Source: Naegleria gruberi
Lineage: Eukaryota
Assembly: GCA_000004985.1 (NCBI GenBank)
Contig: GG738910.1
Length of the DNA: 64,000 nt
Strand: one strand, 5' to 3'
The notes beneath the pieces are model-generated. The model searched no databases, had not been told where the DNA came from, and saw nothing but the letters and a program-made list of their open reading frames with translations. Positions within the stretch are counted from its first letter, which is position 1; every line of letters starts with the position of its first letter. The position numbers were made by a program, and so were the translations under genes. Below, piece by piece: positions 32,929 through 64,000 of this stretch.

Positions 32929-34104
32929 AGCAACAAATATTCTAACTGTTAACTAACATAATCACCTTAGCCAGTTCATCAACATTACATTCACTGCATC
33001 CACTCAACTTTGCATCTAGCATTAGTCATTTTACAAGTATTAAACAGGCCTCTCAAACTCAGCAACATTCCACTAGTCAATTTAAACAATTATATGAAAC
33101 AAATCCTGTCTTGAATGATTCTAATCTACAACTAGAAGAATCAACAACTCTAACCAATCCTCCTTCATTCTCTCTGCCTCCAAAGATTAGTAAGAATTCG
33201 TTTTCGAGAAAAACAATTTCAACTTCATAATTGAGTCTGGATTCTCTTGGTCCAGAAAAAAGAAAGAGGAAGAAGAGAAGCAATTTAATGTGGAAGTGGA
33301 ATAACTCTGTGATTTTTCAACAGAGTGGAACATTAAAGGAAGGTCTGTGATTTTTCAACAGAGAGGTTTCTTTTTGGAAATACATTGAGCATTCCTTTAA
33401 GTGTCAGTTTTCAAGGGAAAAGGAGAACTTGTCCAGTAGATCCAGAATTTATTACTAATGACTTGTTGGTTGGCCCTGTATTTTAGTCAATTAAGAACCC
33501 AAGGCAACCATTGAAAATTGATATTTAGTATTGATTGTATGGATGGTTTGATGATTTGTTTGGATATGATTTCCTTAACTGTAAGAATGTTCAATTCCAC
33601 ATCCGTCCGCAGTGCTAGCAACATTGCTTTGGTTGTATAAAACGACCCTTCTGGAATATTATTAAGGTTGCAATTATTAATATACTAAGGTGGGGTATTG
33701 TTAATCCTAGTTGAACCGTTGATGATTGTTTTGGAAGTCAGGTTATCAAACCAAATGACACTCTATTTAAGACATGATCGTTGAGCTTCAAGTTTGTGTT
33801 TTGGCCTTTGCTAATATTAATAACACTTATTGAAACATGTTGTGGACGCTGTTTGTTGCGTGGTTTTGACTATTAAAAAAGATCTAAAACAATACAAAAA
33901 CAGCTTTTCCTTTTTTAAGTATTTTACTGTGGAGAAGCCATCACCAACAATACTGGTGGTGGTGGTGCACCACCTGCATTGTTTGTGGCATCTTGCTTGT
34001 AATATAGTGTTGGACAACTGTCCGCTATTCATCTCAACAGTGCCTTAAATCACACACTTAATACTTGGTACCAATAATTTCAAACAATAAAAATTCTTCG
34101 TGTG

Positions 34105-43396: not shown

Positions 43397-46300
43397 ATGA
43401 TGAAGACCTCCATTTGCTTCCCATTACTACATTCAAACCACAACATGGCTGTACATTATAGTAAAGGTTCATGTTCAACTACTACTTTGTTGCTAGAAGA
43501 ACAAGATGTGGCTGAAGGTGTTGAACGCCTGTCTCCTCTTGTTCTAAACCTTCGGCTCGACTTCATGCCACCAGTGTTGATTAATAACATTTACTGTCCA
43601 AATATAAAGTGGTGTACTTTGTCAGGAGCGTATGGACTGAAAAGGAAATGCAGAATCGAGATAATGTTTATATTATATAAACTGAACCTTAAAAAAATGG
43701 CCACGTTCATTCAAGAAAAACAAATGGCTGTTTCTAAGGGTGCACAAAAATCATCAATAATTTCAACCATGATGATGATAATTTTTGTATGCCTATTATT
43801 TCTCGCTAACTCGATAAGGGGAATTGACTTTGAGGTTGCGCCTTATTACAAAGTAACAACTTTATTGAGAGAAGCCGATAAAGTTGAGTGTGTTCGTTTT
43901 GGTCCGAAGGGTATATATTATTCCAAGCCATACCAAATAGTTTTATACTCTTTGGACAGTTCTTCAATGTATGTAACTCAAGGAGCTGGCAATTTTGGCA
44001 CTGGAGAAAGAGGCGACACTAATGGTGCTAGATACTGGCGTGATATTACAGGAACATATTCATTAAAATCCAAGATTGATTACCCTTACAAGTTTGCCTT
44101 CCATGCTGGAAGATCCAAAACTTACTTTGCACTGGCTAATCATCAAGTAAAGCTAGACACTGACGATGTTATTTCTCCATTCATTGGTAAACCAAATGTA
44201 ACAGGTAATGCGGAAGGAGATCCTACTTCTGAGTGTCTGTTGAATGATCCTCAAGGAGTTGACGTTTCATTTGATGGTGATTTTGTGTATGTGGCTGATA
44301 CTGGTAACAATCTTATCAAGTATACTTCATACAAAGATGGTGTATTCGTCATTAGTAATCTTGCTGGTACTGGTAACACAACAAGTTTAGTTGACGGTGT
44401 CAATGCTTTACAGGTTGACCTTAATAGACCTGTTTCTGTAAGGTTTTCCAAAAAAACAGGTGAGATTTATATTGCAGAAAAGGGAAATCATGTTATTAGA
44501 AAAGTTAGAAAAGACAATATTGCTTCTGTAGCGGTTGGTTCAATTGGTATCTCAGGTTATAACGGAGATTTTAAGAGTTCTTTGGATTCATTTTTGAGTG
44601 AACCAAGTGATATTGCGATTTCCACTAGTGGTGTTATATATATTGCTGATTCTGGTAATAATCGAGTCAGAAAAGTTTATCAAAATGGTATGTTGGTTTT
44701 CCTCTATTCAGTTTTTACCTTGGGAATGATATATAGGAACAATAACAACTGTATGCGGAAATGGAATGAACATGTATGGAGGCGATTCACTTGATTCTAG
44801 AAGAACAGCAATAGGAGGTGTAAATTCTGTTGATGTTAATGAAAATGGAGAATTAGTTATTTCTCACATGAATTATATTCGTAAATTGACTCCTATTTGT
44901 TATAATGGTTATGTATTCAATTCTGAAACTCATTTGTGTAATCCGTATTTCCAGTGTTTTGGAAAGAAACATACTGAACCATATGTGTGCTCTGGAAGAG
45001 GATCTTGTATTAACCATAATTGTATTTGCAAAGAAGGATTTGAAGGAGAAAAATGTGAAACTATATCAAAGGTTTTCAATGTGAAACGATTGTTGGTTTC
45101 TGGAGAAGTAACAAATCTACCACCATCAATTTTAGCAGCAAATATGAAACATCTTCAAGTGAGCAATACTGGCGACATGATTGTCCTTACACAAGATGGA
45201 ATCCTTGGAAGACTTGTTGGAAACTCACTGGTTAAAGTTTCTCAATCTAGTCTGGCATTGTTCTACCTGGAAGAAGATGGTTCAATACTTACAACATCTA
45301 CTACTTCAATTATCAAGATTGGTATTGATGGAGCTATATTATCTCTTGTAAAAACAACTAATTTCTATGATGTAGATGGCGTCTCACCAACAAATATTAA
45401 TATTGGCGCATTTAGTTGTATTACACAAGATCAAGTTTCAAAAGTCTACTATGTTACAGAATATTACTCAAATGTTTTTGCAAAAGTTGAAAATGGGAAG
45501 TTAGCTTTACTGATTAGTAATACAAAAGGATTTGCAGATGGCTTAAAAAATGTTGCCAGATCTACCTCTCCTAAATTTGTTTATGCATATGGAGGCACAG
45601 TCATATTTTCAGATTATAACAGAATAAGAATGTGGAAAGATTACACAACCACAACAATTGCAGGTAATGGTATCGAAGGATACAACGGAAATAATGTACC
45701 AAAATTGGCCTGTTCTTTTGGTGAAATTGTTGGGTTTCATGTAGTTAGAAAATCAGCAACAGTGTTTTGGATTTACGTTTCTGACAGTTATTCTAGAACA
45801 ATCAGATTAATCAAAACCAATGAAAATAATGTAACTATAATTGCTGGATCCCCTGGGACCGGCAAATACATGAATTTTGAGGATAACCCCAAGAAGGCCA
45901 TTTTTTCATTACCTATTGGTTTATCGATGGTCAATGACACTTTATATTTCATTGACCAAGGAAGTAGTAGAATTATGAGTCTTTCACCTGATGGTACTAA
46001 ACTGACAACCATTGCAGGCGGAAGAGGTGTTTTAAACGTTGGAGAAAATCTAGACCAACGGTTTTCTTATTTTGGTCCATCCCCTACAGGAATTTATCTT
46101 AAAGAATCACCAACAAGGGAATTATTAATTAGTGATAGTAATATTGGCAGAATAAGAAAAAGCATTTTTGAAAACAATCTTTGGGGTAATGTGACTACAC
46201 TTGCTGGTACTTCAACCAGTGAATTGCCAGTTGATAAAGGAATGGATGGTGACTGTTTAACTTGCGCCTTCCTAAGACCTTCAAAAATACGATTCGGGGG

Positions 46301-49300
46301 AAATGAAACTCTACTTGTATCAGAATCGATTAATACTGTCAAACTTATCAATGTTGGGCAGGGATCAGTTAGAACACTTGTTGGAACTCCTTACACTAAT
46401 CCTCTACAAAATCCATCTCTTGTAACTGTCAATACGTCAGCAATAGGATTCCAGATAGATGGGTTACGGGATGCTATTCTTGTTGGAGATGAACTGGTTT
46501 TTGCTGAAAAATCCAGAATTCTTAAGGTCAATTCACAAGGTTTAATAGAAATTGTTGCTGGTGATGGAAATGGTTATTCATGTAATTTTGGTAATTACAT
46601 GTCGGCCAAAATGGCAAAGTTTGGCAATAATGCTGTGGGAACAAAATTGGTAACCTCTCTCGATTATTACGATGGAGAGATTTATATTTTAGAAGAATAC
46701 GCTCTCAGAAAAGTTAATTCCAAAGGAATAATGATACCAATAATTAGTGGGCAAGGAACAACGTCTTGGTCGAATGGAGTTAGAAAATTGCCATTACAAG
46801 ATGCATCAATTCCTGCATGTAGTTTTATGAAAGTTGTTAATGAAAATGAGATTTATATTCTCAGTACTGCAGGACAGTTGTATATTGTAAGAAATGGAAC
46901 TGTTGAGAGACCTATTATAACTAAAGATTTATCTTTTATGGGCCCAGTATATTCCCAATTCTATAGCACAAGCGATGGAGAATTTTACATGTTGACTGCA
47001 AATACGGTTGAATTAGGTAAAATGAGTTGTCCTTCATTTTCCAAACAAAATGAAAATGATACATGTGAAAATATGATAACTTGTTTTGGTTTAAAGTCAA
47101 CAGATCAAAATGTTTGTTCAACGAATGGTAAATGTTCAGCTTTGGATACATGTATCTGTAATTTTGGTTGGAGTGGTGTTAAATGTAATGAATCAACTGC
47201 TCAATTGGTGATTCAAAGCCTGAACCCAAACAGAGTTACCACTGATGATGGACTTGATATTGGTTTCAAAACCTCCTCTTCTCCATTGACAAATTTAAAA
47301 GTTGATACAAAAACAGGAATTGTTTATTTGCTTTCTGGAGGAAAAACCATTTCTCTCAACGGCAAAACAAATGATTGGGTTAGATCCAGTGATACAACAT
47401 CAAAATCTATGATTATTTCTAAAACAACAGGTTACTTCTATTTTTTAAGAGAATCTTGCATCTACCAAAGGGGAGCAACTCCTTATCCATATTATTATTC
47501 TGGAAATTGCTACACTAAGGGTTCAGTTCTTGGAACTATTTCAACCGCATCATATAACAACTTGGAAGATGGTGACTCTGGGGAGGATGGTAGTTTGTAT
47601 ATAGTTGATAGTGGAAATCACGTTGTAAGATTAATATCAGAAGGAGTAATGTCAACCTTTTGTGGTAGTTTTGGTGTTTCTGGTTTATTTATCAACTCTA
47701 ATTCCTCAACCAAAACTTTTTTGAAATCACCAAGGGCCATCAAAGTCACCTCAAACGGGGTTTACATTGCTGATAGTGGAAATTACAGAATTCTTTTTAT
47801 TGATAAATCTGGACATGTCCAAAAAATTGCAGGGTCATCAAATGGTACATCAAATGGGGATGGAAAAGCAACTCTGACAAATATTTTCCCTTCTAATTCA
47901 TTGGATTATTCAGAGAGTCGCCAAGAACTGTACTTTATAGATAATAATAGAGATGAGATGAATTCAGGGAGTGTAAAAGTAAGAAAGATTACCAAAGATG
48001 GATATGTTGAAACGTTGTTTGGTTATTACGAGAGGGATCCATATTCAAACTTAACAGTTCCAATGACCATCACACTGGAAAAGGATACCAGTTTCTATGC
48101 AGCAAATTCTTTGGCTGTTTCAGGTGATTACTTGTATTTAACATTTGATTCTGTGAAATTGATTGCAAAAGTTTCACTTTCCACAAATACCTTGTATGTG
48201 GTTTCCAAAATAGGTTCAGTCCTGAATGGTGATGGCTTTCATGTCGGTTTTACCACCTTCCAACACCCAAGTGCACCATATTTCCATAGTATTACTCGTA
48301 CTTTGTATTGGGTTGAAATGTCCTCAATAAGAATGATGAGAGATAACAAAGTTTACACCGTGGTTGGCCTTAATTCAAACATTCCTTCCTTTGGAAAGAT
48401 GAAACCATTGTGGAAAGATATTTCTCCAAAAGGAATTGCACTTTCATCAACTGGAGAGTTATATTTTTCTGATGGACAGCATGTCATTTATAAGATTCTA
48501 AATTCAAGATCTGATATTGAAATTGTTTGGGGAAAGAAAGGTGTTTATGGAAGTGCTGACACTCTTCTAGAAAATCCAACTGCTATTTTTATTAATTCCA
48601 AAGATGAACTGTATATTGCTGATTCATACAGAATAATCAAGTTTGACATCACCTCCAAGAAAATTACTAAAATAGTGAGTAAGAGTGATGTATATTTTGG
48701 TATATGTTCATCAGTGATAGAACTTTCAACAGGAGAAATAGTCTATGTGGATTCTTATTTTAAAAAAGTTAGAATGATTCTCAACAATGGTACAAATATT
48801 ATAATCGCTGGTGGTGGTTTAAAAACAGGTGTTTCGAATGGTGATCTTGCAACAAAACTACTTTTCACCACTCCTGTTTCAGTTCAAGAAATCAACACAG
48901 GAGTATTACTTTTGCTGGAGCAAAACTCTTTGATCAAGATGACTTGGTCTCCATCTAGAAATGGTTATATTTGTTCAATAATTGCTGGAAAGGGCTTATA
49001 TAGTATGACTGCCTCAGGAAATGGTGGTCTTGCGATAAATGCTGTTATCTATAATTTTGCTATGAGTTACAATACATTTACGAAAGAGGTTTATCTTCTT
49101 GACAATGTTGAGTCAAGAATTATCACTCCGTACTGTCCAGAAGGGTTCACTTTTAATATTTCAAATGAGACATGTCAGCCAGTTGATATGTGTTTTGGTT
49201 TTAATTCAAATGACAACAGAGCGTGTTCTGGAAGAGGTGAGTGCGTTGGTCTTGATGCATGTAATTGTTTTGGAGGTTACAGTGGAATCAAGTGTGAAAT

Positions 49301-52300
49301 AATGTGTCACAAAACATGTGAAGGAACTGTTGTGGACGCATCATTCATGTTAACGGAATTCTCAACTGATTTTAGCAAACCTGGCAATTTGGTGGTAGAT
49401 TCTGAGTACATTTATGTTTCTGATTCTGAAGACAATGTAGTTAAACGTTTTGATAAGGGTGGATATTCTTCAATTTATTGTGGAATTGAAGGACAAAGTG
49501 GCAACCAAGGAAATGGTTTACCAGGAACTGAAGCCACACTAAATTCACCTCTAGGTTTAAGTGTATACAATAATGAACTATTTATTGCTGATTTTAACAA
49601 TAGTGTCATCAGAAAGGTTGACGCTTTTGGGTTTGTTGATGTTGCATTCAATACAACAGAAAAACCTCTCAACATTATTGCCAGGGGCGAAAACGTATTT
49701 TACTATACAGATTCCACTTCATTGTACATGATTAACCAATCAGTTATTAGTACCATTGCAACAGGATTTGATAGTCCTTATGGATTGTTCTATTATTCAA
49801 ATACGTCCAACATGGAGGAAAGTTTACTAGTTGCAGATACCAATAATAACTCAATCAAGAAGGTATCTCTCTCTGATAGACAAGTTACCATAATTCTTTC
49901 TAATTTGAATTCTCCTAAAGGACTATTCATTGATTCTTTTGGTGATCTTTATATTGCTGACAGTGGATCAAACCAAATTTTAAAGTATTCAGGAGGTGTT
50001 TTGAAGGTAATTGCAGGAACATCCAATTCCTCAATGAATGGTACAGATGGTGCAATCAATTCACTTCAAGCAATTCTGCACTCTCCTAGTGATCTTATTG
50101 TAACAGATGAAGGAATTATTTATTTCACCGATTCACAAGGATATGCCGTGAAAACTCTCACTCCTGTTTGTGATAAAATTTCCATGTATGATCCAATTTT
50201 AAGAAAGTGTTTCCGACCTCTACTTTGTTTCAATTTTGGTATTGATGATAAGAGAGCTTGTAGCTCTAATGGTCAATGTGTTGCAGAGAATACCTGTAAT
50301 TGTAATGATAATTGGGGAGGGGATGATTGTTCCATTCCATCATGTTTCAACATTTCTGCTTCAAGTACCACTACGGTTTGTTCTGGACATGGTTTGTGTA
50401 TTGATCATAATACTTGTCGATGTGATACTGGTTGGTCTGGTGCTGACTGTTCAATTGCATCATGTTATGGTATCAAGGGTGATAACAGTTCAGTATGTTA
50501 CGGAAATGGCCAGTGTGTCGGTTTTAATCAATGTTCTTGTAATAATGGATGGTCTGATTTCGATTGTTTGACACCTTCGTGCTTTGGCTTGACCTATGAT
50601 TTGGATTCTTCATGTTCTGGAAATGGCAAATGTATTTCTAATGATACTTGTGAATGTTATTTAGGTTATCAAGGTCCTGATTGCTCTACAGTGTCAGTCG
50701 ATCCATTCCAAGTATACAATCCAGTACTAACTGTTAAGACTATTGGTTCTTTGAACAAACCAAAAGGAGTTACAGTATCTTCGAGTGGTGATATTTATTT
50801 CAGCGATACTAGCAACAATAAGTTGAAGAAGATATTACAATCTGATTGGTCTGTATCTCTTATTGCTGGAACTGGTACTGGTTCGTTTTCAGGTGATGGA
50901 TCTTCACCAACAGCAGCCACTATTAATAATCCTATTGGTTTGGATATTACAGAAAACGGAGAAGTTTATTTTGCTGATTCAAATAACAATAGAGTTAGAA
51001 AATGTAGTTATGATGGTAAATTAATCTCGACAGTGGTCCAAGTTACATCTCCTCAACAAGTCAAAATTGACGAATACAATAATCGATTGTGGATTGTTGC
51101 TTCTGGAGGAGTTTACATGTATGATTTGAATATTGCAAATATGACCCTTGTATACAGTAATGATCTCAATACTCCATTCGGAATTGATATTGGATATCAA
51201 GGTAAAATAGTGTACATTACAGACAAATCAAATCATGTTATTAGAAAGCTCGCAAAAAGAGGTAATTCATATGTTCAATCTATTTATTTTGGAAGTAAGG
51301 GAGTAACTGGAACCTACTCATCAACATCTAATATGAATAACCCAATGGGTATATCAGTAACTAATGGTAATAGTATTATATTTTCTGATTCCTCTAATCA
51401 TGTAATTAAACTGATTTCTCATGGAGTTAACAAGACAACATCAGTTATTGTTGGTACTGGATCTTCATCAGGTTATTCAGCAACAGAAACTAAACCTCTT
51501 TCCATGGCTCTAAATACTCCCGGTGATGTATTTGTGAATGAGAAAGGAATTTATATTGCTGATACCAATGACAACGCCATTAGAATTATTAAGATTTCAT
51601 GTCCATACACTAACTATGTTTTCAATTATTATACTTCCAAGTGTGAATTTGATACCAGAATTTCTTGTAATAAGATTTCATTTTCTTCACCAAATGTTTG
51701 TAATGGTAAAGGTGTTTGTTATGGAGTTGATAAATGCAACTGTACAAGTGGGTGGAATGGTACTTTTTGTGAAATACCTATTTGTTTTGGAGTGTCCAAT
51801 CCAAAACTAGCTTGTAGTTCAAATGGTCAATGTATTTCTAACAATACTTGTTCCTGTAATGATGGTTGGTTTGGATCTATTTGTCAAAATCCATCTTGTT
51901 TTGGAATTTCATATAATGATTCAAATACCTGTTCTGGAAATGGTCAATGTATTGCAAATAATACTTGCTCGTGTGATAATTTTTACGAAGGCAAAAATTG
52001 TTCTCTTCCAAAATGTTTTGGTATTAATTCAGACAGCTCATTGGTTTGTAGTGGAAATGGTTTATGCGTTAGCCCAGATACATGTAATTGTACTAGCGGT
52101 TATTTTGGAAATGATTGTTTTTACACAAATTGTTTTGGAATATTGTCAGGAGAAACTACTGTATGTTCCTCAAAAGGAAACTGTACTGCTCCAAATACTT
52201 GTTTTTGTGAAAAAGGGTATTATGGGAATCAGTGTCAAAACTTTACTTGTTTTGGAATTGACTCATTCAGCCCCAATGCTTGCTCATCTCGTGGAAGTTG

Positions 52301-55300
52301 TATTGACATCGATAAATGTAAATGTGGAGATGATTTTTATGGTTCTAATTGCACAGGGTTTGATTGCTTTGGTTATCCATCAACTAATCCAAATACTTGT
52401 TCTGGTAAGGGTGATTGTTTAAATCCAAACACTTGTATCTGTAATGATGGTTATGCAGGTGAAAGGTGTGAAATTGCTCGTTGTTTTGGAGTTTATGGAA
52501 ATGAATCAAACGTATGTGATTCACATGGTGAGTGTGTATCCTTAGATAACTGTACATGTACATCACTTCATCATTATGGAGATAATTGCGATAGATTTGA
52601 TTGTTTTGGAATTGAGAGTAGCAATTCAAGTGTTTGCTCTTCCCATGGAAATTGTACTTTCCTTGATATTTGTAATTGTTCGAAAGGTTACGAAGGTTTA
52701 TCATGTTCTGAATTCAATTGTTTTGGAAAAAAGCCAATCGCTTCTGATATTTGTTCTGGAAATGGCATTTGTACTGGTCCAAATATATGTAATTGCAAAG
52801 ATGGGTATTTTGGAGATGATTGTCAGATAACCAATTGTTATGGAATTCATAGTAATGAGTCTAGTGTATGTTCATCAAATGGTAGATGTATTTCTTTAGA
52901 TTCTTGCTCTTGCTCTTTTGGATATTATGGAGAGATGTGTCAAGAATATGATTGTTTTGGAATGAAACACTCAAATACAAGTGTTTGTTCACAACATGGA
53001 ACATGTCATTCTCCAAATAATTGCACTTGTAATGATGGATATCATGGTGCAGACTGTGATAGATTCAATTGTTTTGGAGTTTCTTCTTTCAATAGTTCAG
53101 TATGTTCATCAAGAGGTTACTGCAAATTACCAAATGTCTGTTCTTGCACTGGAACTTTTTATGGTGAAAATTGTGAACAATATGACTGTTTTGGAATCAA
53201 TTATCAAAACTCAAATGTTTGTTCCTCACACGGTAAATGTATTGGGGCTGATGCTTGTCAGTGTTATGATGGATATATATCTAGTAATTGTTCTGTTCCT
53301 CTTTGCTTTGGTATTTCAGCTCTTAACTCGTCAGTTTGTAGAGGACATGGTTATTGTACTTCACCTAATAAGTGTGACTGCATTTCGAATCAAGATACAA
53401 AGTTTGATGGACAGGAATGTCAAAATCATTTCTGTAAGGAATACGATGGAACCTTAATAAGGTTTAACAATAATTCAGTTTGTAGTGGTTCTGGAGTTTG
53501 TAAGTTAAATCGAGTCATGAAGAGAAGCGAATGTGTATGTAGTGAAAATTATGGAGGAGAGTCTTGTGAAATGCCAAAATGTTTCGGTATTTTACAAAAT
53601 GAGACAAGTGCTTGTAACAACAATGGATTTTGTTCAAGTGTAGATACTTGTGAATGTCATCATAATGATTTTTTTGGATATTGGAAGGGTTCTAATTGTA
53701 CACAATGCCAAGTTCCATATTCTGGATCCAAATGTAATGTTATTAAGGAGTGCAATGCTTCTGTCTGTCATAACAATGGTATTTGTGACGAGTACATGAC
53801 TTGCATTTGTAATTCTAATCAAACACATGGTTTCTGGAATGCAGAATTTTGTAACGTTTGTCAAGAAGGTTATTATGGAAAGGAGTGTTCCACGCAAATG
53901 CTTGGCCCTCTTAAATTAAGTGGAGAGGCATCATCCATGACATTCAAGATGAATGCTCCAATTTCATTTTCAAAGACAAGTGTTAACTGTACAAGATTTT
54001 TGAGGGAAGATTCTTATGAAACTGTTGGAGGATTGCAATCTATTTGTTCTTGGAATAATAGTATGATGAAAGTGACATTTGGTGCTTCATTTGATGTTAA
54101 ATCAGGTAGAATTATTTATTTGAATAGATTGGTCTTTGATGAGAGCGGATATGATTACGAACCGATCAAATTGGAATATCCAGATACACCAATCCTTCCT
54201 ACTGCCATTGTCGAATCAAACAAATTAGTTGGATCTTGCGACAGTATTATAATTGATGGAAGTAAGAGTTACTCTCCTGATTCTAAACCTCTTTCATTTT
54301 CTTGGAAAGTTGTTAATTCTCCAAATATTAATAGTTTGCAACACATTGTACAATCACAAACAAGATCTATTCTTTCCATTGATAGTAGCAATTGCTCTAC
54401 AGGTGTTCACATTTTCGAGCTGATTGTAAAGAGTTCTATATTAGAATTACAAAGTATTCCACTAACAATTTCCATCACTAAGGCAGAAATTCCTCTACCA
54501 ACTATTTCCATAGATGCACAAGCCTCCCCTCTCACAACTTCAAAGTTACCATACAAGATAATGAAAAGTACTGTTTTGCCTGATTGTGCTCAATCTTTGA
54601 GTATGATATATAATTGGAAGCTGGTGAGCGGTAGAAACGATATTGTTTTTGAGATGGATCAATTTAATAATTTAGTAATTATCAATTACTTCCTGGAAGA
54701 TTCAAGTTATGAATTTGAATGTAGTGTATTTGTGGAAGGACATGCAGAAAATATTATTACTTCAAAAGTTTCCTTTAGTACCAAGATTAGTCCTTTATCT
54801 TCTGAAATCAGACTTGTTGAATTATCAACCAATTATACTATTATTCAATTATTGTTCAGGGATCCAGAAATTGTTAATGAAGAGGTTAATGTTGAATGGG
54901 AGTGTATTGATTTGGACACCAAACTGAATTGTTCATCGTCACTTCTTTCCCATCTTTCAACTTTACCTCTTAACTCTGAATTTTTAATATCTGGAAGTTT
55001 GTTATCAAATTACAACAACATATCCTTGAAATCTACTATCAAGAAGGGAAAGAGAATTTCCAATAGTGAACTCGTAGTAACCATTCCTCAAAAAACACTC
55101 CCTCCAATTATTTCACCTGTTTATCTGTCGCCAAGTAATTTAGCTCTAGGATCGAGTATTAATCTTCAATTTGGTGTAACTATCGATGGAAGTGATGACA
55201 TTAGTTCAGCTATTAGTAGAAAATGGACTCTCAACAATGTTGTTATTGAAAAATCAGATAGTATGAGACTGGATCCATCTGAATCCAACTCCTTAATATT

Positions 55301-57002
55301 AGCAACTAATTCTTTTACAGAAGGGGCCACATACAAGATTGATTTCAAAGTGACTGACCAAAGAAATAATCAATTTTCAATCTATTCCTATTCTTTTTCA
55401 ATCAAGATTTCTCCAAAGTGTACATGTACAATTAGTCCATCATCTGGTTATGCTCTCCAAACTCTTTTTACATTTGCATGTACTGATTGTAAAAATAATC
55501 AAGGACCTTTATCGTTCGAATATGGCTTCATAGATAGTCGTTACCAAACTAGAGTAACCTTATCAAAGAGTTCTAAATATTCGGCCGTTCTCCCATCCTC
55601 TTATCAAGGAAATACATTGAATCTGTATGCTGTTGTTAGTGACTCTGTAAGTCAATCATCAAGTTATTTGAGTGCAGAAGTTCTTGTACCTGTCATTGGT
55701 TCACTAGCTGAAGCAAAGAAGAAACAACTTCAATGGAAAACAACAGGTTCCTCACTCAAAGATGGTGATTATATGAAGAGTGTGTATAGCAATGATGTTA
55801 TGACAAGTACTTTCACAAAGATGATTGCCTCTTTACTATCAGCAAGATCTGTTTGTAACGGAAAAGGAGTTCTAAATAATGGAAAATGTCAATGTGATAA
55901 TGGGTATTCTTCATTTGATTGTAGATATACCACTTCTGATTATGTATCCATTCAAGAGAGTGTATTTGATTTATCTAACGATTTTAAAGAAACATTTGGT
56001 GTTTATCTAGATTCCAAAGATATTCTAAGCGAAAAGTTTGTTGCCAATATTATTTTCGGACTTGAAACTTTGACAAATCGTTTTGATTTCTTGAATGAGA
56101 CATCTTTTGACATTATCTTATCAATTGTTGATCATTTATTGGAAGAACACGAAAAGTATTCATCAGTTCAAACATCCAATGGTGTAGATACGCTCTTACT
56201 CGATATTTTGGATCATTTATATTCTTTTACAGAATATTATGAGATTAAGGAACAATTAATGAGCAAATTAATTGAAATTTCCCAAAGACTCTCTTCACTT
56301 GAATCAAGAAAAATATTGGTCGGCCAACCTCCTTTAATTCTTTCCAATCAATTACAAACTTCAATTACCAACAAACATTTTAGAGAGGAATATTCAGGAC
56401 TAGTAATTAGATATAATAATTATTCTACTATACTACCAGAGTCTTTCTCAAAGCATCTATCCAATCAGCCAAAGAGAGTACCAGTTACTTACAGTTGGTT
56501 TGCTCTTAAAGATCTTTCACAATTCATATTACCAGGAAATGCATCAAGAATTATCTCAAAATATGTTGTGAAATTCACATTGGAAAAGGTTAAATATTTG
56601 GAATTATTGAAAGAACCTGTGAAATTTGAAATACCACTCATTGAACCAATAGACATGAATTCTAATAAGTATTCCTGTATTGACTTTTCCAACATGACAA
56701 TGCCAGTGGAAAGTGAGTGCCAATTTAAAGTGGAAAATGGAATAGCCTCTTGTTCTTGCTTAAACTACTCAAGTACCGTTGGAATAACATTCTTTGAACG
56801 CAGTCGAAGAGCTCCATCAATTCTTGCAGTTAAAACTGCACCACTTTGGGAATTATTCTCTCTACTCACAATTCCATTTGCAATAATTTTGGTTGGTTGT
56901 GCATTCACAATTAAAACGATTTTTAACAGAAAAATCAGCCTTGACAATAATCAATTCGAATTGAGAAACGTGGACAGCATGATTGTGACGGAATCAGCTT
57001 AA
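43397..57002 (+). CDS. Cluster member 4 (giant, ~4,400 aa): NHL propeller(s), ~45 tenascin-type EGF units, PKD/REJ-like module, GPS-like motif, C-terminal TM; 2 exons, approx join(43397..44687,44737..57002); functional start probably at the ATG at ~43697 (MATFIQEKQMAVSKGAQKSSIISTMMMIIFVCLLFLANSIRG signal)
   Basis: ORF 43397..44794 joins ORF 44766..57002 through a 49-nt intron (caaaatg|gtatgt...atatag|gaacaataacaactg), restoring ...RVRKVYQNG|TITTVCGNGMNMYGGDSL.... The module shares collinear blocks with member 5 (GSCDSIIIDGSKSYSPDSKPLSFSWKV vs GSCEDVLIDASESYSPDRKTLNFKWTV; KCTCTISPSSGYALQTLFTFACTDCKN vs KACSCAISPTSGIALTTIFTFNCENCQN; KSVCNGKGVLNNGKCQCDNGYSSFDCRYT vs KDCSGHGSLVNGKCVCEADYTTFDCRMT). 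Juxtamembrane YSCIDFSNMTMPVESECQFKVENGIASCSC, TM LWELFSLLTIPFAIILVGCAFTI. Confidence 0.6.
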
Positions 57003-58205: not shown

Positions 58206-61200
58206 TTAAACAGACTTCATTTCAACTCCTTGTTTTGAGGAATTTGTAGTTTCTGGTTTCATTCTCTTAACAACACAATAACCAAAAATTCCCAATACAA
58301 TAAAGGCAATAATGATAAAGCAAATAATCAAAAAAGCCCACAAAATCCAGAATAACTCAGAGATTCCCTTTGGAGTTTCAGGATTAACTTGTTTTTCAAT
58401 TGGAACAGATGATAAAATACCAACTCTAACATTTTCTGAACATTCACATTGGCCAGAATTAGAATTGAAGGAGAATTTACATGAAGAAGCATCAATGACT
58501 TGACCATTTGTAACTTGAATGCACGAATAAGTTGCCTTATCATTAAAAGTTTGTGTAAGTGGCAAGGAATGAGTTATTGGAGAGGAATAGTTTGTAATAG
58601 ATGTTGAGAATTTAATTTCAGATAAATCAGAGACAATAGTATTAGTTGTACCTTCTTGTTGAGGAGTTACATATTGAGAAACATCCTTAATAATCATCCA
58701 AATGTAATTGACTGGCTTTCTGAGAGAGACACTTTGTAACCTTTGAGAAACAGTTGAAGGAAGAGTTAATGAAGTTTGACTTTCTGTCAAAACTTGTGAA
58801 TCAAAAGTATTCTTAAATTGCTTGTTGAATTGATGAACTGCAAAATTAGGTTCAAACTTGAAAGATGATTGACCAACAAGAACCTTTCTTGAAAGTAATG
58901 AAACCACCATGTGACAACTTTCCATCAATTCTGAATAGTCATACGAAGGCAAAGTCTTTAAATAAGAATGCATGGAATTGAGGGACGAAAGCAACAACCT
59001 TTCAACACCAACTTCAAATTGGAATAATGGAGTGTTTTCAGCATCATTCAAGGTTGACTTGATAATATTCATACTCATGTTATAGACATTAGCAGAAACG
59101 TAACTCTTCAACATAGATTCAATACCGAACATAATGTTAGTAAAAAACCTTCCAGTTATCTTTTCTCCATTTTCATTCTTGACTTGTTGGGAAGAAAAGA
59201 AAGCAGTAGCCAAATCTTGAGTAATTTCATTCAAAATTTCATAATCTTCCTTTGTCATTCTACAGTCAAATGTTGTGTAATCAGCCTCACAAACACATTT
59301 TCCATTAACCAATGAACCATGTCCAGAACAATCTTTCTTTACACTTCTTGATTTAGGGGCGAGAGAATCTGTCATTCTCTTGAGGACTCTTGAAATGATT
59401 GCAGAATTGAAAACAGATCTAGCATAATCACCAGTTGGTAATAATAAGGTGATGGCGTTCCATTTTGTCATGTACTCCTTGATATCCTTTACCTTTGATA
59501 CATATGGAGCTGTAATTTGAACTGATTTCTTGGAAAGAGTTGTTGCAGATGTTTCAGTATCAATAACCTTAACATACAGTTCAAGATTATTACCAGAATT
59601 TGGAGTTGGAAGTTTTTGGTACAATTCTTCATCCTTTGATAAGGTAATTAAAGCACCTGAGAAATCATCAATAAAACCATATTCGAAAGCATAAGTCTTC
59701 TTATCATTTTGACAATTTTCACAATTGAAAGTAAAGATTGTGGTCAAAGCAATACCAGAAGTTGGACTAATGGCACAACTACATGCTTTTGGAGGTCTGT
59801 TAACAGAGAAGGAATAAGAATATGATGTCTTTTGATTATTTCTCTTATCCAAGATAGTTAATGAAATGGTATTAGAACTACCTTCATCCAAATATTGAGT
59901 ATCCAAAATTAGAGAATTTGACAATGATGAACTGATACTCATTGGTGATGTTAATATAGCATCAATAGCCTTGTCATTCAATAACCATGTTCTTGAGATG
60001 AATTGATCTATATTTAAATCACCATTAATAGTGACAACCAATTGAATATTGACATAATCTCCCTTATTAACCTTTGAAGAAGATACTTGAACAACGGAGA
60101 TCAAAGGTGGCATGATTAAATGTTCTGCTTGTTGTGGAAAATTCAAATCAACTGATGATTGAACAAATCTACTTCCCTTTCGAATAGTGAGGCTAATTCT
60201 AACATTTTCTGCTGAACCAAACATTGACTTTTCAATCTTGTATTGTTCAAGAAAACCTTGAGACAAGTAATTAACAACATCAACTGGACAAACAGTATTA
60301 GTAACAGTGTCCACACATGTCCAAGAATAAGTTGGTTGAACATTTTCAGATTCTGGATCAGTGAAATCAATTCCAATGGTACTGTATTGAGGAGTAGAAT
60401 CTAAAACATACATGTTCATTGAGAGTGCTTGAGCTACAGTGTCGATAGTGACAAGAGCTGTTGAAAATTTGTTAACATTAGAAGTATCGAAAGCAGAGAC
60501 TTTGAAAACATATTGTCTTGTTTCAATGGTATTGAAATTGGTAATCTTTAAATTCTTGAATGAATCAACTGTGAATTCTACTTGAGGACCACTGATTTGT
60601 GTCCATGTGTAATCAATATTTGCAGCAGATTCCATGCATATTGGAATGGACAGCTTCTTCTTGAATGAAATTGGAACGTCACTAGTCTTGACAGTAACTG
60701 AACTACTTTTATATAAGCCATCAATGGAAACAACTGGAACAGCATAGGTAAGTTTGGTGAAACTGAATTGAATCTTATCAACCAATGAATAAACTTGACT
60801 AGTTACAGCCAATTCAAATTGATGAACACCAGCATTCATACCAGAATAGCTAATATTCAATTTACTTGGGGAAGCAAGAGTAGAATCCAATAACTTTTGA
60901 AGTTCTACCTTATTTGGTGATGACAATACAGTCCATTTGAAATTCAATGTCTTTCTATCAGGGGAATAACTTTCAGAAGCATCAATTAAAACATCTTCAC
61001 AACTTCCATAAGTGTCCTTAGCTCCAGATATTGTGGCAATCGGACTCTTTGGTGATAAAGCACCTTGGACAGTAAATGCCAAATATTGAGCATTGACATT
61101 ATTTGATTCAAAGTATAAATTATTCAAAGAGATACTATCACCTGCCTTCAATTTGTAGTCCGTGTTAAGTTCAATTGAGAATTCAAACGTTTCCTTGTTA

Positions 61201-63872
61201 GACCAGTAACATTTTGGATTAGTTCCAAGAAGATCAATACTCTTCAACAACTTGTTACAATCAAGAATCATACTATTAGTATATAAAGAAGAATAAGATG
61301 CAGGTGCAATAACCTTAAATGTCAAACCAGTCAAATCATCCATAAAAAGAACTGGTCCAATAATCTTTGTTGAACACAATTCACCATAAACTCCATCTGC
61401 ACAGGTAGAACAAGATTCACCCTTCCAGAAACCTTTCTTGTTATCTGCATAACAAGTACATTGTTCAAGCTCATTACAATAACCATTTCCACTACAAGTA
61501 GTTGAGGCATTACATTTAACCAAACTATTACACATAGCTCCTAAATAAGGAGAAACACATGCTGAACAATCTGCACCAGTCCAATAACCTTTGCCAGCTA
61601 TGTTATCACAGACACAAATATTCAAATCTGTACATTGACCATGTCCAGAACAAACAGATGAAGCATTGGAAGAAATGCCACCACAAGTGAATTGAGCACA
61701 ATGACTTCCGTAATATCCAGATTGACAAGAACAATGATCGAAAAAATCACATCTACCTTTTCCATAACATGCTGACGCATTTGTTGAGGCAGTTCCATAA
61801 CAATCAAATTGACTACAATCATATCCAGTAGTATCCATCTAAACAGGAGCAATTATTTGGGGAGATGCAACCACCATGTCCATAACATGCTGAACCACTT
61901 GTTGAGGCAGTTCCATAACAATCAAATTGACTACAATCATTCCCGTAGTATCCATCTAAACAAGAACAATTATTTGGTGAGATGCAACCACCATGTCCAG
62001 AACATGCTGATGCATTTGTGGAGGCAGTTTCGTAACAATCAAATTGACTACAATCATTTCCGTAGTATCCATCTAAACAAGAACAATTATTTGGTGAGAT
62101 GCAACCACCATGTCCAGAACATGCTGATGCATTTGTGGAGGCAGTTTCGTAACAATCAAATTCACTACAATCATTTCCATAATATCCAGCTAAGCATGAA
62201 CAGTTATTTGGTGAGACACAACGACCATAACTAGAACAAACTGAACCACTTGTTGAGGCAGCTCCAAAACAATCAAACTCAGCACAGTCATTTCCGTAAT
62301 GTTCGTTAGAGCATGAGCAATTATTTGGTGAGATGCAATCACCATGTCCAAAACAAACTGAACCACTTGTTGAGGCAGTTCCAAAACAATCAAACTCAGC
62401 ACATTCATTTCCATAGTATCCAGAGGTGCATGAACAATTATTTGGTGCAATACAATAGCCATTTCCAGAGCAAGCTGATGAATTACTTGGTGAAATATCA
62501 AAACATTTGAAAGAACTGCAATCTGATCCACTATATCCAGCTAAGCATGAGCAGTTATTTGGTGAGAGACAGGTTCCATGAACAGAACATGCTGATGCAC
62601 TTTTTGAGGCAGTTCCAAAACAATCAAATTGGCTACAATCATTTCCATAGTAATCGTTTGAGCATGAGCAATTATTTGGTGAGAGACATATTCCTTGAGA
62701 AGAACAAACTGATGAAGAAGTAAATAATGTACCAAAACATTCGTATTCACTACAATTACTACCATAGTATCCATAGGTGCATGAACAATTATTTGGAGCA
62801 ATGCAACTACCATGACCAGAACAAACTGATGCATTACCTGGAGCAATGTCATAACATTTGAATAAACTACAATCAGCACCACTGTATCCAGATAAACAGG
62901 AGCAATTGTTTGGAGCAACACAACTTCCATGTCCTGAGCAAACGTTGTGGTCAGTATTCAAAATATCACTACAATTAAAAAGTTGACAATCTGCACCAAA
63001 GTAATTTGTTTCACATTTACAAGTATCTATGGCTGTACATGTTCCGTGGCCTGAGCAAACAGTTGAGTTGTCACCTGAAATTCCATTACATGTTGGATAT
63101 TGACAAGTGTTTGGAGCAACACATGTGGTATATTGAGGACATGCTTTTGGATGTGTGGCCACAATACCATTACACTTTGGAGTTTGACAATTTGAACCAC
63201 CCCAAAGTACACCATAATCTGTCAAGCTGCCAGGAGGAAAAAAAGTATCCTTTCCAAACCCATGGAAAGGAAAAGTTAAACAAGCACCTTTAGTATTGTT
63301 AGCGAAATAATCAGACACTTGAAGTACTAACCTTCTAAAGAATAAAGAACCATGTTCCCATCAACTTGGAGAACAAATTTGAAAGGTGGAGACTGACTAG
63401 CACACTCACCAGTTTTCATGGCTTCCCTGTGTTGATTCAAATCTGCCTTTTCCGTGTTACCGTCGTACAATTTAAGAGAACCAGTTTGTGTTAACACTAA
63501 CTTATAACCATCAGTTGCTGGGCCGAAAGTAGAACTATACCGAGTCATTGTTCTGAGACCTATCTGAATGAGACTACCATCATCGTTCAAGATTAAAGTC
63601 AACTTTCCATCAGCAGATGTTAATGCTTTAGTTGCATAGAGAATTGGTGATTGTTCAGTGAGGCCTGTTTTTTCTGAAAGATCAACACAGAGGCAGCTGT
63701 TTTCACCATAGCAAATATTCCCTCCACAAGTCGAATTGTCTGTTCCAGGAATTCCATTACAAGTATATGAAGTAACCTCACTGATTATGAAAAGCAAAAG
63801 GATTACCAACACCGACACGAACAGTTTCATGTTGTGGATTTTTTTTAAAGTCGAATTTTCAAATTGAATCAA
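58206..63872 (-). CDS. Cluster member 5 (giant, ~2,400 aa, minus strand): signal peptide + bulb-type (B) lectin domain exon, tenascin-type EGF array, PKD/REJ-like module, GPS-like motif, C-terminal TM. Interrupted by an apparent 1-nt frameshift at ~61822-61838. Approx join(complement(63332..63872), complement(~61822..63287), complement(58206..~61838))
   Basis: Exon 1 (ORF 63327..63872) is MKLFVSVLVILLLFIISEV... followed by ...ATDGYKLVLTQTGSLKLYDGN...FKFVLQVDGNMVLYSLEG, the bulb-lectin 'QxDxNxVxY'-type fold. A 44-nt intron (gttagt...gctaac...ctaaag) puts it in frame with ORF 61819..63318, which is all CxCxxGYxGxxC units. That frame hits TGA at 61819 exactly where a repeat unit reads GYYWI* in place of GYYGNDCSQFDCY. 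The +1 frame continues as MDTTGYDCSQFDCYGTAS... (ORF 58206..61838). C-terminus: YSCIQVTNGQVIDASSCKFSFNSNSGQCEC..., TM LFWILWAFLIICFIIIAFIVLGIFGYC, tail VVKRMKPETTNSSKQGVEMKSV*. Confidence 0.55.
61822..62290 (-). repeat. Tandem array of near-identical 117-nt (39-codon) EGF-unit repeats inside cluster member 5
   Basis: Units encoding DCSQFDCY(E/G)TAST(N/S)(A/G)SAC(S/Y)GHGGCISPNNCSCLDGYYGN are repeated at least three times (approx 61822..61938, 61939..62055, 62056..62172) with about 1-3 substitutions per unit, and more divergent units farther 5'. The antisense strand reads as the spurious His-rich ORF 61809..62234. Confidence 0.75.
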
Positions 63873-64000
63873 AACACTGCTTAACTTTGTCCAAAGTTTT
63901 TCCTTATTGAAAGAGAAGGTCCTATTCCAATCAAGGAAGAATTAATAATACTACATTTAAGGACTGCATCATTTCGCACATTCTGCTTGCGTATATCCCC

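What the first reader, a model, noticed from the sequence alone, without database searches (positions are those of the whole stretch)
63332..63872. Domain swap: a bulb-type (B) lectin replaces the NHL propeller at the N-terminus of one giant receptor
Members 3 and 4 begin with signal + NHL blades. The minus-strand member instead begins with a signal peptide and a ~150-aa bulb-lectin-like domain (…YKLVLTQTGSLKLYDGN… / …FKFVLQVDGNMVLYSLEG), joined by a 44-nt intron to the EGF array. Exon shuffling within the family implies modular ligand-recognition heads on a common EGF / PKD-REJ-like / GPS / TM chassis.
Basis: partly seen in the sequence, partly recalled or inferred. Interest (0 to 1): 0.5.

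Follow-up and report, generated by a model that had tools for sequence, protein, structure and literature searches.

The report
Bulb-type lectin head, Naegleria surface protein
The window is Naegleria gruberi DNA, and the flagged stretch does encode a very divergent bulb-type (snowdrop-lectin-like) sugar-binding domain, spliced through a 44-base intron onto a giant EGF/REJ membrane protein; that protein is already in the databases as an uncharacterised prediction whose lectin domain Pfam does not detect.

Summary
On the minus strand, an ATG at 63830 opens a signal peptide, a 29-residue EGF-like half-module and a roughly 113-residue bulb-type (beta-prism II) lectin domain. A phase-1 GT..AG intron (63331..63288) joins this to the EGF array.

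The splice matches the public model exactly (N. gruberi EFC38229 / D2VYF2). Two metagenomic orthologues keep the intron at the same site.

Pfam B_lectin gives no hit. Homology rests on other evidence:
- phmmer E-values of 1e-18 to 1e-10 against proteins that carry B_lectin;
- a single-domain profile match of 56.7 bits, against at most 4.7 bits for 2000 shuffles;
- an AlphaFold model whose 45 best PDB matches are all beta-prism II lectins.

Only the third QxDxNxVxY sugar-binding motif is intact.

The REJ-to-membrane region is collinear with the NHL-headed neighbour (32% identity, E 2e-133), so different heads on one chassis is real.

Exon shuffling through this intron is not supported. The intron cuts off the prism's last strand and is absent in paralogues. 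The lectin appears nested inside the first EGF unit. No GPS motif is detected.

The window copy also carries a +1 insertion at about 61827, which the annotation hides with a 73-nt pseudo-intron.

Modest interest: a new variant of a known kind.

The parts
63768..63830 (-). Start codon and signal-peptide-like N-terminus (residues 1-21, MKLFVSVLVILLLFIISEVTS)
   Evidence: Read directly from the sequence. The same start and hydrophobic leader occur in orthologues L001 and L005. No signal-peptide predictor was available.
63681..63767 (-). EGF-like Cys-rich half-module (residues 22-50, YTCNGIPGTDNSTCGGNICYGENSCLCVD)
   Evidence: It has the same pattern as the first half of the array's EGF units. The equivalent stretch of a paralogue gives a weak EGF_2 hit. 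It is inferred to be the N-terminal half of an EGF unit that hosts the lectin.
63332..63653 (-). Bulb-type (beta-prism II) lectin domain, exon-1 part (residues 60-166, plus the first base of codon 167)
   Evidence: Supported by phmmer, the Pfam content of the hits, the profile match, PDB profile hits, and the AF2 model with Foldseek.
63561..63587 (-). First motif position, degenerate (NDDGSLIQI, residues 82-90)
   Evidence: Alignment to the canonical QxDxNxVxY motif.
63465..63491 (-). Second motif position, degenerate (TQTGSLKLY, residues 114-122)
63342..63368 (-). Third motif, canonical QxDxNxVxY (QVDGNMVLY, Q155 D157 N159 V161 Y163)
   Evidence: It is identical in L001 and is the only motif broadly kept across the heterolobosean homologues. 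L005 has Asn to His at this motif.
63288..63331 (-). 44-nt phase-1 intron (GTTAGT...CTAAC...AG)
   Evidence: There is an in-frame stop two codons into the intron, and the downstream frame is restored only by splicing. Orthologues have an intron at the same site: 47 nt in L001 and 43 nt in L005. The public model uses the same splice.
63271..63287 (-). Exon-2 part of the lectin domain (the rest of codon G167, then ACLTF): the last beta-strand of the prism
   Evidence: The AF2 model has a strand at mature residues 146-151, in a block with mean pLDDT 82. The homologous W-x-T strand is contiguous in paralogues.
63172..63219 (-). DYGVLWGGSNCQTPKC: the C-terminal half of an EGF unit that follows the lectin
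   Evidence: It matches the (Y/W)GGxxCxxPxC end of ordinary EGF units in the window and is conserved after every heterolobosean lectin copy. Lectin-excised constructs of four paralogues give end-to-end EGF matches below threshold.
61749..62943 (-). EGF array: about 10 tandem copies of a 117-nt (39-aa) unit
   Evidence: Tandem Repeats Finder; Pfam EGF_2 and EGF_Teneurin.
61827..61827 (-). +1 nucleotide insertion that breaks the reading frame (GGATACTAC[T]GGATATG)
   Evidence: The frames switch here. The repeat spacing is 118 instead of 117. All blastn alignments to L001 show a 1-nt gap here.
61772..61844 (-). 73-nt 'intron 2' of the public gene model, most likely an annotation patch over the frameshift
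   Evidence: It is needed to reproduce EFC38229. The same stretch is uninterrupted EGF coding sequence in L001. Its 5' site, GTTTAG, is weak.
59463..60362 (-). REJ domain
   Evidence: Pfam PF02010 at E 6.6e-22, 78.2 bits against a cut-off of 25.
58269..58355 (-). Single transmembrane segment (LFWILWAFLIICFIIIAFIVLGIFGYCVV)
   Evidence: Read directly from the sequence. It is collinear with the TM segment of the neighbouring paralogue.
58206..58268 (-). 20-residue cytoplasmic tail and stop codon

Best explanation
The region is exon 1 of Naegleria gruberi gene NAEGRDRAFT_74099 (EFC38229 / D2VYF2).

The gene encodes a type-I surface glycoprotein with this layout: signal peptide, then a first EGF unit that carries a nested, highly divergent bulb-type (beta-prism II, GNA-like) lectin domain, then about 17 EGF units, then a PKD/REJ region, then one transmembrane helix and a 20-residue tail.

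Shown here:
- the domain is a B_lectin homologue with all three subdomains in register;
- a 44-nt phase-1 intron joins it to the EGF array;
- the C-terminal chassis is shared with NHL-headed paralogues next door.

Inferred:
- Of the three potential sugar sites, only the third (Q155-x-D157-x-N159-x-V161-x-Y163) is intact. The protein would therefore present one mannose- or rhamnose-type binding pocket at the membrane-distal tip of a long rigid EGF stalk.
- It would work as an adhesion or prey-recognition molecule of a bacterivorous amoeba, not as a signalling receptor, because the tail has no signalling domain.
- The lectin moved between family members as an EGF-nested cassette rather than as a free exon.
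For: Organism and gene:
- Two window ORFs are exactly N. gruberi EFC38191 and EFC38193.
- The 1835-aa public protein is reproduced exactly by exons 63830..63332, 63287..61845 and 61771..58206.

Lectin homology:
- phmmer against 1.8e9 proteins gives 15 hits at E<=1e-10, many covering query residues 42-149 as a single domain.
- The ten best distant hits all have PF01453 at 49-177 bits.
- A profile made only of heterolobosean sequences finds Pfam-B_lectin proteins at E 1e-20 to 5e-11 in 5.8e9 sequences.
- A two-sequence profile hits garlic agglutinin at 4.5e-7, and also pyocin L1 and putidacin.
- A profile of canonical segments scores 56.7 bits against at most 4.7 bits for 2000 shuffles.
- The AF2 core has pLDDT 86-96.
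- The top 45 Foldseek PDB hits are all beta-prism II lectins, with target-normalised TM 0.72-0.82 and rmsd 2.4-3.1 A among the best hits.

Splice:
- Orthologues L001 and L005 have GT..AG introns of 47 and 43 nt at the identical codon position and phase.
- L001 becomes one continuous ORF of at least 1330 aa after splicing.
- The exon-2 start is homologous to sequence that follows the lectin without interruption in paralogues.

Shared chassis.

Functional constraint:
- The third motif is conserved across the family.
- The region downstream of the frameshift has dN/dS 0.39.
Against: - Pfam's own B_lectin model gives no hit, even at E<=10.
- Two of the three motifs are degenerate. The Trp that follows each motif in canonical members is replaced (Y, none, L).
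- Orthologue L005 has His in place of the motif Asn.
- The lectin head has dN/dS of about 0.64 against L001, which fits relaxed constraint as well as it fits diversifying selection.
- The AF2 model was built from an alignment dominated by canonical lectins, so it is not independent evidence for the fold.
- The window copy carries a +1 frameshift.
- No transcript data and no binding data could be consulted.
Confidence: 0.72

Rival explanations
1. The beta-prism fold is kept, but it is no longer a sugar-binding lectin. It would serve as a protein-binding or purely structural cap on the EGF stalk, in the way the lectin-like domains of plant S-locus receptor kinases bind a peptide rather than a glycan.
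For: - Two of three motifs are degenerate and the core Trp residues are replaced.
- L005 has Asn to His in the one canonical motif.
- The head has dN/dS of about 0.64.
- The SRK ectodomain 5gyy_B is among the structural matches.
- Pfam scores fall below threshold across the whole heterolobosean group.
Against: The third motif, including Q, D, N, V and Y, is identical in the window and L001. It is the one motif broadly kept across N. gruberi and Willaertia paralogues while the other two drift. That pattern is what selection on one binding pocket would produce.
Confidence: 0.3
2. 63327..63872 is a separate small gene, or an intron-retaining isoform, that gives a secreted 167-aa EGF-lectin protein not attached to the EGF/REJ chassis.
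For: - The unspliced reading frame stops two codons after the 5' splice site in all three orthologues, so an unspliced transcript would give a short secreted product.
- Prokaryotic gene callers called exactly this ORF on metagenome contigs.
Against: - Exon 1 alone lacks the last strand of the prism. In this fold that strand closes the domain against the N-terminus (PMC3797127).
- GT..AG at the same codon and phase is kept in three orthologues, with no other signal for a gene end.
- The downstream sequence is homologous to what follows the lectin directly in intron-less paralogues.
- The public gene model splices it.
Confidence: 0.07
3. In the sequenced strain the gene is a recently inactivated pseudogene, so its lectin head has no current function there.
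For: - There is a +1 insertion at about 61827 inside an EGF unit.
- The public model only keeps the frame by removing 73 nt of sequence that is coding in L001.
- The head has a raised dN/dS.
Against: - This is the only defect. 3.6 kb of A+T-rich ORF downstream is free of stops and has dN/dS 0.39 against L001.
- Indels between the orthologues in exons 1 and 2 are all multiples of three.
- The insertion lies in a 117-nt tandem array with copies 86-92% identical, where a base-calling or assembly error is plausible.
Confidence: 0.2

Closest known systems
Monocot mannose-binding / GNA-related lectins and bacterial tandem-lectin bacteriocins (Pfam B_lectin PF01453, beta-prism II; e.g. garlic agglutinin 1BWU, gastrodianin 1XD5, pyocin L1 4LE7)
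   Same: - It has three roughly 35-residue subdomains in the same order and register.
- It has a canonical QxDxNxVxY motif.
- The predicted fold superposes at TM 0.72-0.82.
   Different: - It scores below Pfam's threshold.
- Only one of the three motifs is intact, and the core Trp residues are replaced.
- It has a 10-15 residue insertion before subdomain 3.
- It is embedded in a 1860-aa membrane protein rather than being a free 12-kDa lectin.
Plant G-type lectin receptor kinases / S-locus receptor kinase ectodomain (5GYY)
   Same: It is a single-pass membrane protein whose ectodomain combines B_lectin and EGF-like modules. 5gyy_B appears among the structural matches. The domain composition of SRK is from general knowledge.
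   Different: - There is no kinase and no PAN domain.
- There is one lectin domain rather than two.
- There are about 17 EGF units and a REJ region.
- The cytoplasmic tail is only 20 residues.
Sea-urchin receptor for egg jelly (suREJ1) and polycystin-1 (lectin domain + REJ module membrane proteins; from general knowledge, Moy et al. 1996)
   Same: A carbohydrate-recognition domain and EGF sit on a REJ module, followed by membrane anchoring. The REJ domain here scores 78 bits.
   Different: - Those proteins use C-type lectin domains; this one uses a beta-prism II lectin.
- Pfam detects no GPS motif here.
- There is one TM helix and no polycystin channel-like region.
NHL-headed EGF/REJ paralogues in the same window (36244..42357 +; 43397..57002 +) and teneurin-type EGF/NHL modules
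   Same: - The REJ-to-TM chassis is collinear: 32% identity with E 2e-133, and 30% with E 4e-53.
- The EGF units are of the same type.
   Different: The head is a lectin rather than NHL blades. The lectin profile does not detect the NHL regions at all.
Other heterolobosean EGF-lectin proteins: N. gruberi EFC36407 and EFC40255, and Willaertia magna KAL9646771 and KAL9641966
   Same: The same cassette is present: CxC(V/I)D, then the lectin, then Y(L/F)(Y/W)GGxxCxxPxC, preceded by a signal peptide and followed by an EGF array.
   Different: - The chassis differs: GPS + multi-TM + RGS in EFC40255, and a short stalk in EFC36407.
- The Willaertia locus has two lectin copies inside the array.
- No intron is present at the lectin/EGF junction in L002 or L004.

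Membership tests
B_lectin / GNA-related beta-prism II lectins (PF01453) | Match to the Pfam PF01453 model at or above its gathering score (32.4 bits) | tested here: not met
   There is no hit at E<=10 for the 272-aa N-terminus or for the isolated 117-aa domain. Paralogues reach only 30.4 and 16.5 bits.
B_lectin / GNA-related beta-prism II lectins (PF01453) | Statistically significant sequence similarity to bona fide family members over the whole domain | tested here: met
   - phmmer E-values of 3e-18 to 1e-10 in 1.8e9 proteins.
- The hits carry PF01453 at 49-177 bits.
- A heterolobosean-only profile finds PF01453 proteins at 1e-20.
- PDB lectins are hit at 4.5e-7.
- The profile match is 56.7 bits against at most 4.7 bits for shuffles.
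B_lectin / GNA-related beta-prism II lectins (PF01453) | Three tandem subdomains (four-stranded meanders) in one domain of about 110 residues | tested here: met
   One alignment covers profile positions 9-106 and residues 60-168 with all three motif positions in register. The AF2 model has 12 strands in the core.
B_lectin / GNA-related beta-prism II lectins (PF01453) | Beta-prism II three-dimensional fold | tested here: met
   The AF2 model has core pLDDT 86-96. The 45 best Foldseek PDB matches are all beta-prism II lectins. Caveat: the model's alignment was dominated by canonical lectins, and a 2-sequence alignment gave pLDDT 35.
B_lectin / GNA-related beta-prism II lectins (PF01453) | QxDxNxVxY carbohydrate-binding motif | tested here: met
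   It is present once, as QVDGNMVLY at residues 155-163. The other two positions read NDDGSLIQI and TQTGSLKLY.
B_lectin / GNA-related beta-prism II lectins (PF01453) | Conserved Trp after each motif (hydrophobic core) | tested here: not met
   The aligned positions are Y, no counterpart, and L/C in the window. Trp is kept only after the third motif in some paralogues.
B_lectin / GNA-related beta-prism II lectins (PF01453) | Binding of mannose or a related sugar | not testable with these tools
   This needs recombinant protein and glycan arrays.
REJ-module membrane proteins (polycystin-1 / suREJ type) | REJ domain (PF02010) above threshold | tested here: met
   78.2 bits against a cut-off of 25, E 6.6e-22.
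REJ-module membrane proteins (polycystin-1 / suREJ type) | GPS motif next to the first transmembrane segment | tested here: not met
   There is no PF01825 hit at E<=10 in the whole ORF or in the 170 juxtamembrane residues. The sequence reads CECSENVRVGIL, without an HL(T/S) cleavage site.
   - There is only one intron, on the 3' side.
- It lies 5-6 residues inside the fold.
- There is no intron between the signal peptide, the EGF half-module and the lectin.
- The homologous junction has no intron in L002 or in Willaertia L004.
Domain nested inside an EGF unit | Flanking halves reconstitute a recognisable EGF unit when the insert is removed | tested here: inconclusive
   Four paralogue constructs give end-to-end EGF_2 or EGF_Teneurin alignments at E 1e-3 to 7e-3, below threshold. 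The window's own construct gives none. The flank motif (Y/W)GGxxCxxPxC equals the end of ordinary units.

The most novel reading that the evidence does not exclude
Heterolobosean amoebae own a small, so far undescribed class of surface proteins in which a single-site beta-prism II lectin is nested inside an EGF unit. This EGF-lectin cassette has been moved between different membrane chassis: REJ with one TM here, GPS with multiple TMs and RGS in EFC40255, and mid-array duplicates in Willaertia.

The REJ version would be a protist counterpart of the lectin-plus-REJ receptors of animals (suREJ1, polycystin-1), built with a different lectin fold. It would be used to recognise mannose- or rhamnose-bearing glycans on prey or substrate.
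Probability: 0.25. Interest if true: 0.55.

Novelty: new variant of a known kind. Interest (0 to 1): 0.35.

Why it matters
Free-living and pathogenic amoebae must recognise bacteria, fungi and host surfaces. For Naegleria, no paper on a bulb-type lectin, or on this EGF/NHL/REJ protein family, turned up in the two literature searches made here.

If the head binds sugar, this gene and its two N. gruberi paralogues are concrete, testable candidates for glycan-dependent adhesion or prey recognition. They would also show that the lectin-on-a-REJ-module design is not restricted to animals.

On the practical side, the case shows that Pfam thresholds miss a whole group of divergent B_lectin domains. 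It also shows that the public model of this gene hides a frameshift behind an invented intron.

Tried and rejected
- Pfam B_lectin search on the N-terminus and on the isolated domain: no hit. This is not taken as evidence of absence, because direct phmmer and profile searches are strongly positive.
- AF2 on a 2-sequence alignment: pLDDT 35, unusable. It was repeated with 43 sequences.
- My early note that the lectin exon was unannotated (no self-hit) was wrong. One search retrieved EFC38229 with exactly this exon structure.
- I tested whether the lectin subdomains derive from the neighbouring NHL blades, since beta-prism II and propeller blades are argued to share ancestry (PMC3797127). The lectin profile gives nothing on any NHL region of the window, so this was rejected as a recent event.
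- A real intron at 61844..61772 was judged unlikely. The stretch is uninterrupted coding sequence in L001 and in the window's own repeat units, and the repeat register shows a single extra base.
- Two scans of JGI metagenome contigs for further orthologues found nothing.
- Exact-product look-ups for several N. gruberi proteins found nothing.
- The afdb50 fold library was unavailable.
- The third word-indexed protein search did not return the long eukaryotic homologues, so the taxonomic spread (for example N. fowleri) could not be established.
Full report
**What is in the sequence**

On the minus strand, the ORF 63872..63327 contains an ATG at 63830.

The reading frame stops two codons after a GT at 63331. 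The 44 nt from 63331 to 63288 are GTTAGT...CTAAC...AG. Removing them joins codon phase 1 to the frame of the 499-codon EGF ORF, giving ...MVLYSLE-G-ACLTFPFHGFGK....

**Where the window comes from, and what is already public**

Two window ORFs are letter-for-letter Naegleria gruberi proteins EFC38191 and EFC38193, from a 243,952-bp scaffold.

A search with the downstream ORF retrieved an 1835-aa 'predicted protein', EFC38229 / XP_002670973 / D2VYF2 / NAEGRDRAFT_74099. I can reproduce it exactly from exons 63830..63332, 63287..61845 and 61771..58206.

So the gene model with the 44-nt intron is already public. The Pfam domains precomputed for it (EGF types, PKD-like, REJ) do not include B_lectin.

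**Is the domain a bulb-type lectin?**

Pfam PF01453 gives no hit at E<=10, either on the 272-residue N-terminus or on the isolated domain.

Other evidence is strong:
- A full phmmer scan of 1.84 billion representative proteins gave 260 hits at E<=1e-3 and 15 at E<=1e-10. Many align to query residues of about 42-149 as one domain.
- The ten best distant hits all carry PF01453 at 49-177 bits.
- A profile of the window plus its closest orthologue hits garlic agglutinin (4.5e-7), pyocin L1/L2, putidacin and gastrodianin in the PDB.
- A profile built only from the eight heterolobosean sequences, with no canonical lectin in it, finds proteins with precomputed PF01453 at E 1e-20 to 5e-11 in 5.8 billion sequences.
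- A profile of 35 canonical segments aligns residues 60-168 in a single 98-position match of 56.7 bits. The best of 2000 shuffles scored 4.7 bits.
- In the six-frame translation of the whole 64-kb window this is the only hit. The NHL regions score nothing.

AlphaFold2 failed with two sequences (pLDDT 35). With a 43-sequence alignment it gave pLDDT 86-96 for the core. The 45 best Foldseek matches in the PDB are all beta-prism II lectins, with target-normalised TM 0.72-0.82 and rmsd 2.4-3.1 A among the best hits. Because the alignment was dominated by canonical lectins, this shows compatibility with the fold rather than independent proof.

**Anatomy of the head**

- Residues 1-21 are signal-like.
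- Residues 22-50 (YTCNGIPGTDNSTCGGNICYGENSCLCVD) look like the first half of one of the array's EGF units.
- Residues 60-172 are the lectin.
- Residues 190-205 (DYGVLWGGSNCQTPKC) match the (Y/W)GGxxCxxPxC ending of ordinary EGF units elsewhere in the window.

The three motif positions read as follows:
- first: NDDGSLIQI, degenerate;
- second: TQTGSLKLY, degenerate;
- third: QVDGNMVLY, a canonical QxDxNxVxY.

The Trp that follows each motif in canonical members is replaced. Across the heterolobosean homologues, the third motif is the one that is broadly kept.

In GNA-type lectins this motif forms the mannose pocket. In pyocin L1 it binds D-rhamnose. The first point is general knowledge; the PDB titles list the mannose and rhamnose complexes.

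**The splice**

Two metagenomic orthologues were recovered.
- L001 is 66% identical in the head. It has a 47-nt GTAAGT...CTAAC...AG intron at the same codon and phase. After splicing it is one uninterrupted ORF of at least 1330 codons running from the signal peptide through the lectin and EGF array into the REJ region.
- L005 is more distant. It has a 43-nt GTATGT...TAG intron at the same place, with otherwise diverged intron sequence.

In all three, the unspliced frame stops within two or three codons.

The first residues of exon 2 form the last strand of the prism in the model (mature 146-151). They are homologous to the W-x-T strand that follows the third motif without interruption in paralogues. 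In this fold the terminal strand closes the domain against the N-terminus (PMC3797127). Exon 1 alone would therefore encode an incomplete domain.

This argues against a separate monocistronic lectin gene. An intron-retaining minor isoform cannot be excluded without RNA data.

**Domain swap and exon shuffling**

The chassis claim holds. The REJ-to-TM region is collinear with the convergently oriented neighbour (44766..57002), at 32% identity over about 1000 residues and E 2e-133. It is 30% identical over 581 residues with the 36244..42357 gene. Both of those genes carry NHL repeats and the same EGF types.

The lectin head is not unique to this gene. The same cassette (CxC-V/I-D, lectin, Y-x-(Y/W)-G-G-x-x-C-x-x-P-x-C) occurs in the following proteins:
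- N. gruberi EFC36407, on a short stalk;
- N. gruberi EFC40255, on a GPS + multi-TM + RGS chassis;
- Willaertia magna KAL9641966;
- Willaertia magna KAL9646771.

At the KAL9646771 locus (L004), an uninterrupted 1654-codon ORF contains two lectin copies, the second in mid-array.

The junction has no intron there, nor in L002, the metagenomic counterpart of EFC40255.

So modular heads are supported, but the vehicle is not this intron. It lies inside the fold, has no partner on the 5' side, and is lineage-specific.

The unit that recurs looks like an EGF unit with a prism nested in one of its loops. Lectin-excised constructs of four paralogues give end-to-end EGF_2 or EGF_Teneurin alignments, but only at E 1e-3 to 7e-3. 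The window's own construct gives none. I rate this as suggestive.

Pfam detects no GPS motif in this gene.

**Is the gene intact?**

The EGF ORF and the REJ ORF are in different frames. The cause is one extra base at about 61827:
- the 117-nt repeat register jumps to 118 there;
- all three blastn alignments to L001 show a 1-nt gap.

The public model restores the frame by removing 73 nt (61844..61772, GTTTAG...CAG). That stretch is ordinary EGF coding sequence in L001.

Downstream, 3.6 kb stay open, and dN/dS against L001 is 0.39. The defect is therefore either a sequence error in a repetitive array or a very recent mutation.

The head evolves faster than the chassis (dN 0.305 against 0.072; head dN/dS 0.64).

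**Most likely mechanism**

The protein is a type-I surface glycoprotein that holds a single-site beta-prism II lectin at the tip of an EGF stalk, on a REJ module. It has one TM helix and a 20-residue tail with no signalling domain.

I infer glycan-dependent adhesion or prey recognition through the third motif, with about 0.4-0.5 confidence for that step. The main rival is that the prism has become a non-glycan-binding cap, as in plant S-locus receptor kinases. The motif losses, the Asn to His change in L005 and the high dN/dS all fit that rival.

**Comparison with known systems and novelty**

By fold and sequence the domain is a divergent member of the B_lectin superfamily, below Pfam's threshold.

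The architecture resembles plant G-type lectin receptors (B_lectin + EGF + TM) and the animal lectin-plus-REJ receptors suREJ1 and polycystin-1, both from general knowledge. It differs in lectin fold, in lacking a kinase and a GPS motif, and in the EGF-nested placement.

Literature searches for Naegleria with bulb-type lectin, GNA-related lectin, REJ or NHL terms found nothing relevant.

It is a new variant of a known kind in an already deposited, uncharacterised protein, and of modest interest.

Noticed in passing
window 61827 (-), with 61772..61844: A single extra base breaks the frame inside the EGF array: the repeat spacing is 118 instead of 117 nt. The public model EFC38229 hides it by splicing out 73 nt that are ordinary coding sequence in the orthologue L001. 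Removing the base gives an intact 1859-aa protein.
   Followed up: yes
window 63288..63331 versus L001 865..911: The short intron is 41/44 identical between the window and L001 (93%), against 74% at exon-1 third codon positions and 75% in the 5' leader (binomial P about 0.001-0.007). The intron of the more distant L005 at the same site is diverged. The constraint is possibly on splicing signals in a minimal intron; it remains unexplained.
   Followed up: partly
window 63332..63653 versus 58206..61771: Between the window and L001, the lectin head diverges about four times faster at the protein level than the REJ chassis (dN 0.305 against 0.072; dN/dS 0.64 against 0.39).
   Followed up: partly
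L005 669..695: A third orthologue, from another metagenome, has QVDGHLVVY: the motif Asn is replaced by His in the only canonical sugar-binding motif.
   Followed up: no
L004 480..5441 (Willaertia magna JBEGDK010000124): The locus is one uninterrupted 1654-codon ORF with two lectin domains embedded in EGF arrays. The deposited model KAL9646771 (1050 aa) skips about 600 codons of it through predicted introns.
   Followed up: partly
L002 1880..1910: Just after the lectin domain, the metagenomic counterpart of N. gruberi EFC40255 differs from the N. gruberi protein by an apparent 2-nt frameshift (GPVIQWKQL* instead of GPVMYNGNNC). This is either an assembly error or a pseudogene.
   Followed up: no
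window 44688..44736 (+): A 49-nt phase-1 intron (GTATGT...ATAG) joins ORF 43397..44794 to the 4078-codon ORF 44766..57002 in the middle of an NHL blade (...VRKVYQNG|GTITTVCGNG...). The ATG at 43397 does not look like a signal peptide, so the true 5' end of this gene was not established.
   Followed up: partly
window 26205..28319 (-), 30236..32404 (+), 34100..42357 (+), 43397..57002 (+), 58206..63830 (-): The right-hand 38 kb of the window is a cluster of at least five genes for NHL and/or EGF surface proteins with single TM segments. The 30236..32404 protein has a sub-threshold GPS match (E 0.007) that the lectin gene lacks.
   Followed up: partly
window 63831..63900 and L001 280..350: The block upstream of the start codon (TTCAATAAGGAAAA...CTTTGG.CAAAGTTAA, then an A-rich run ending CACAACATG) is conserved between the window and L001. 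It is possibly the core promoter or leader.
   Followed up: no
window 17305..20490 (+): This ORF is exactly N. gruberi EFC38193. Its sequence layout looks like a membrane sensor with a C-terminal nucleotide-cyclase-like region. That is an impression from reading the sequence; it was not scanned against Pfam.
   Followed up: no
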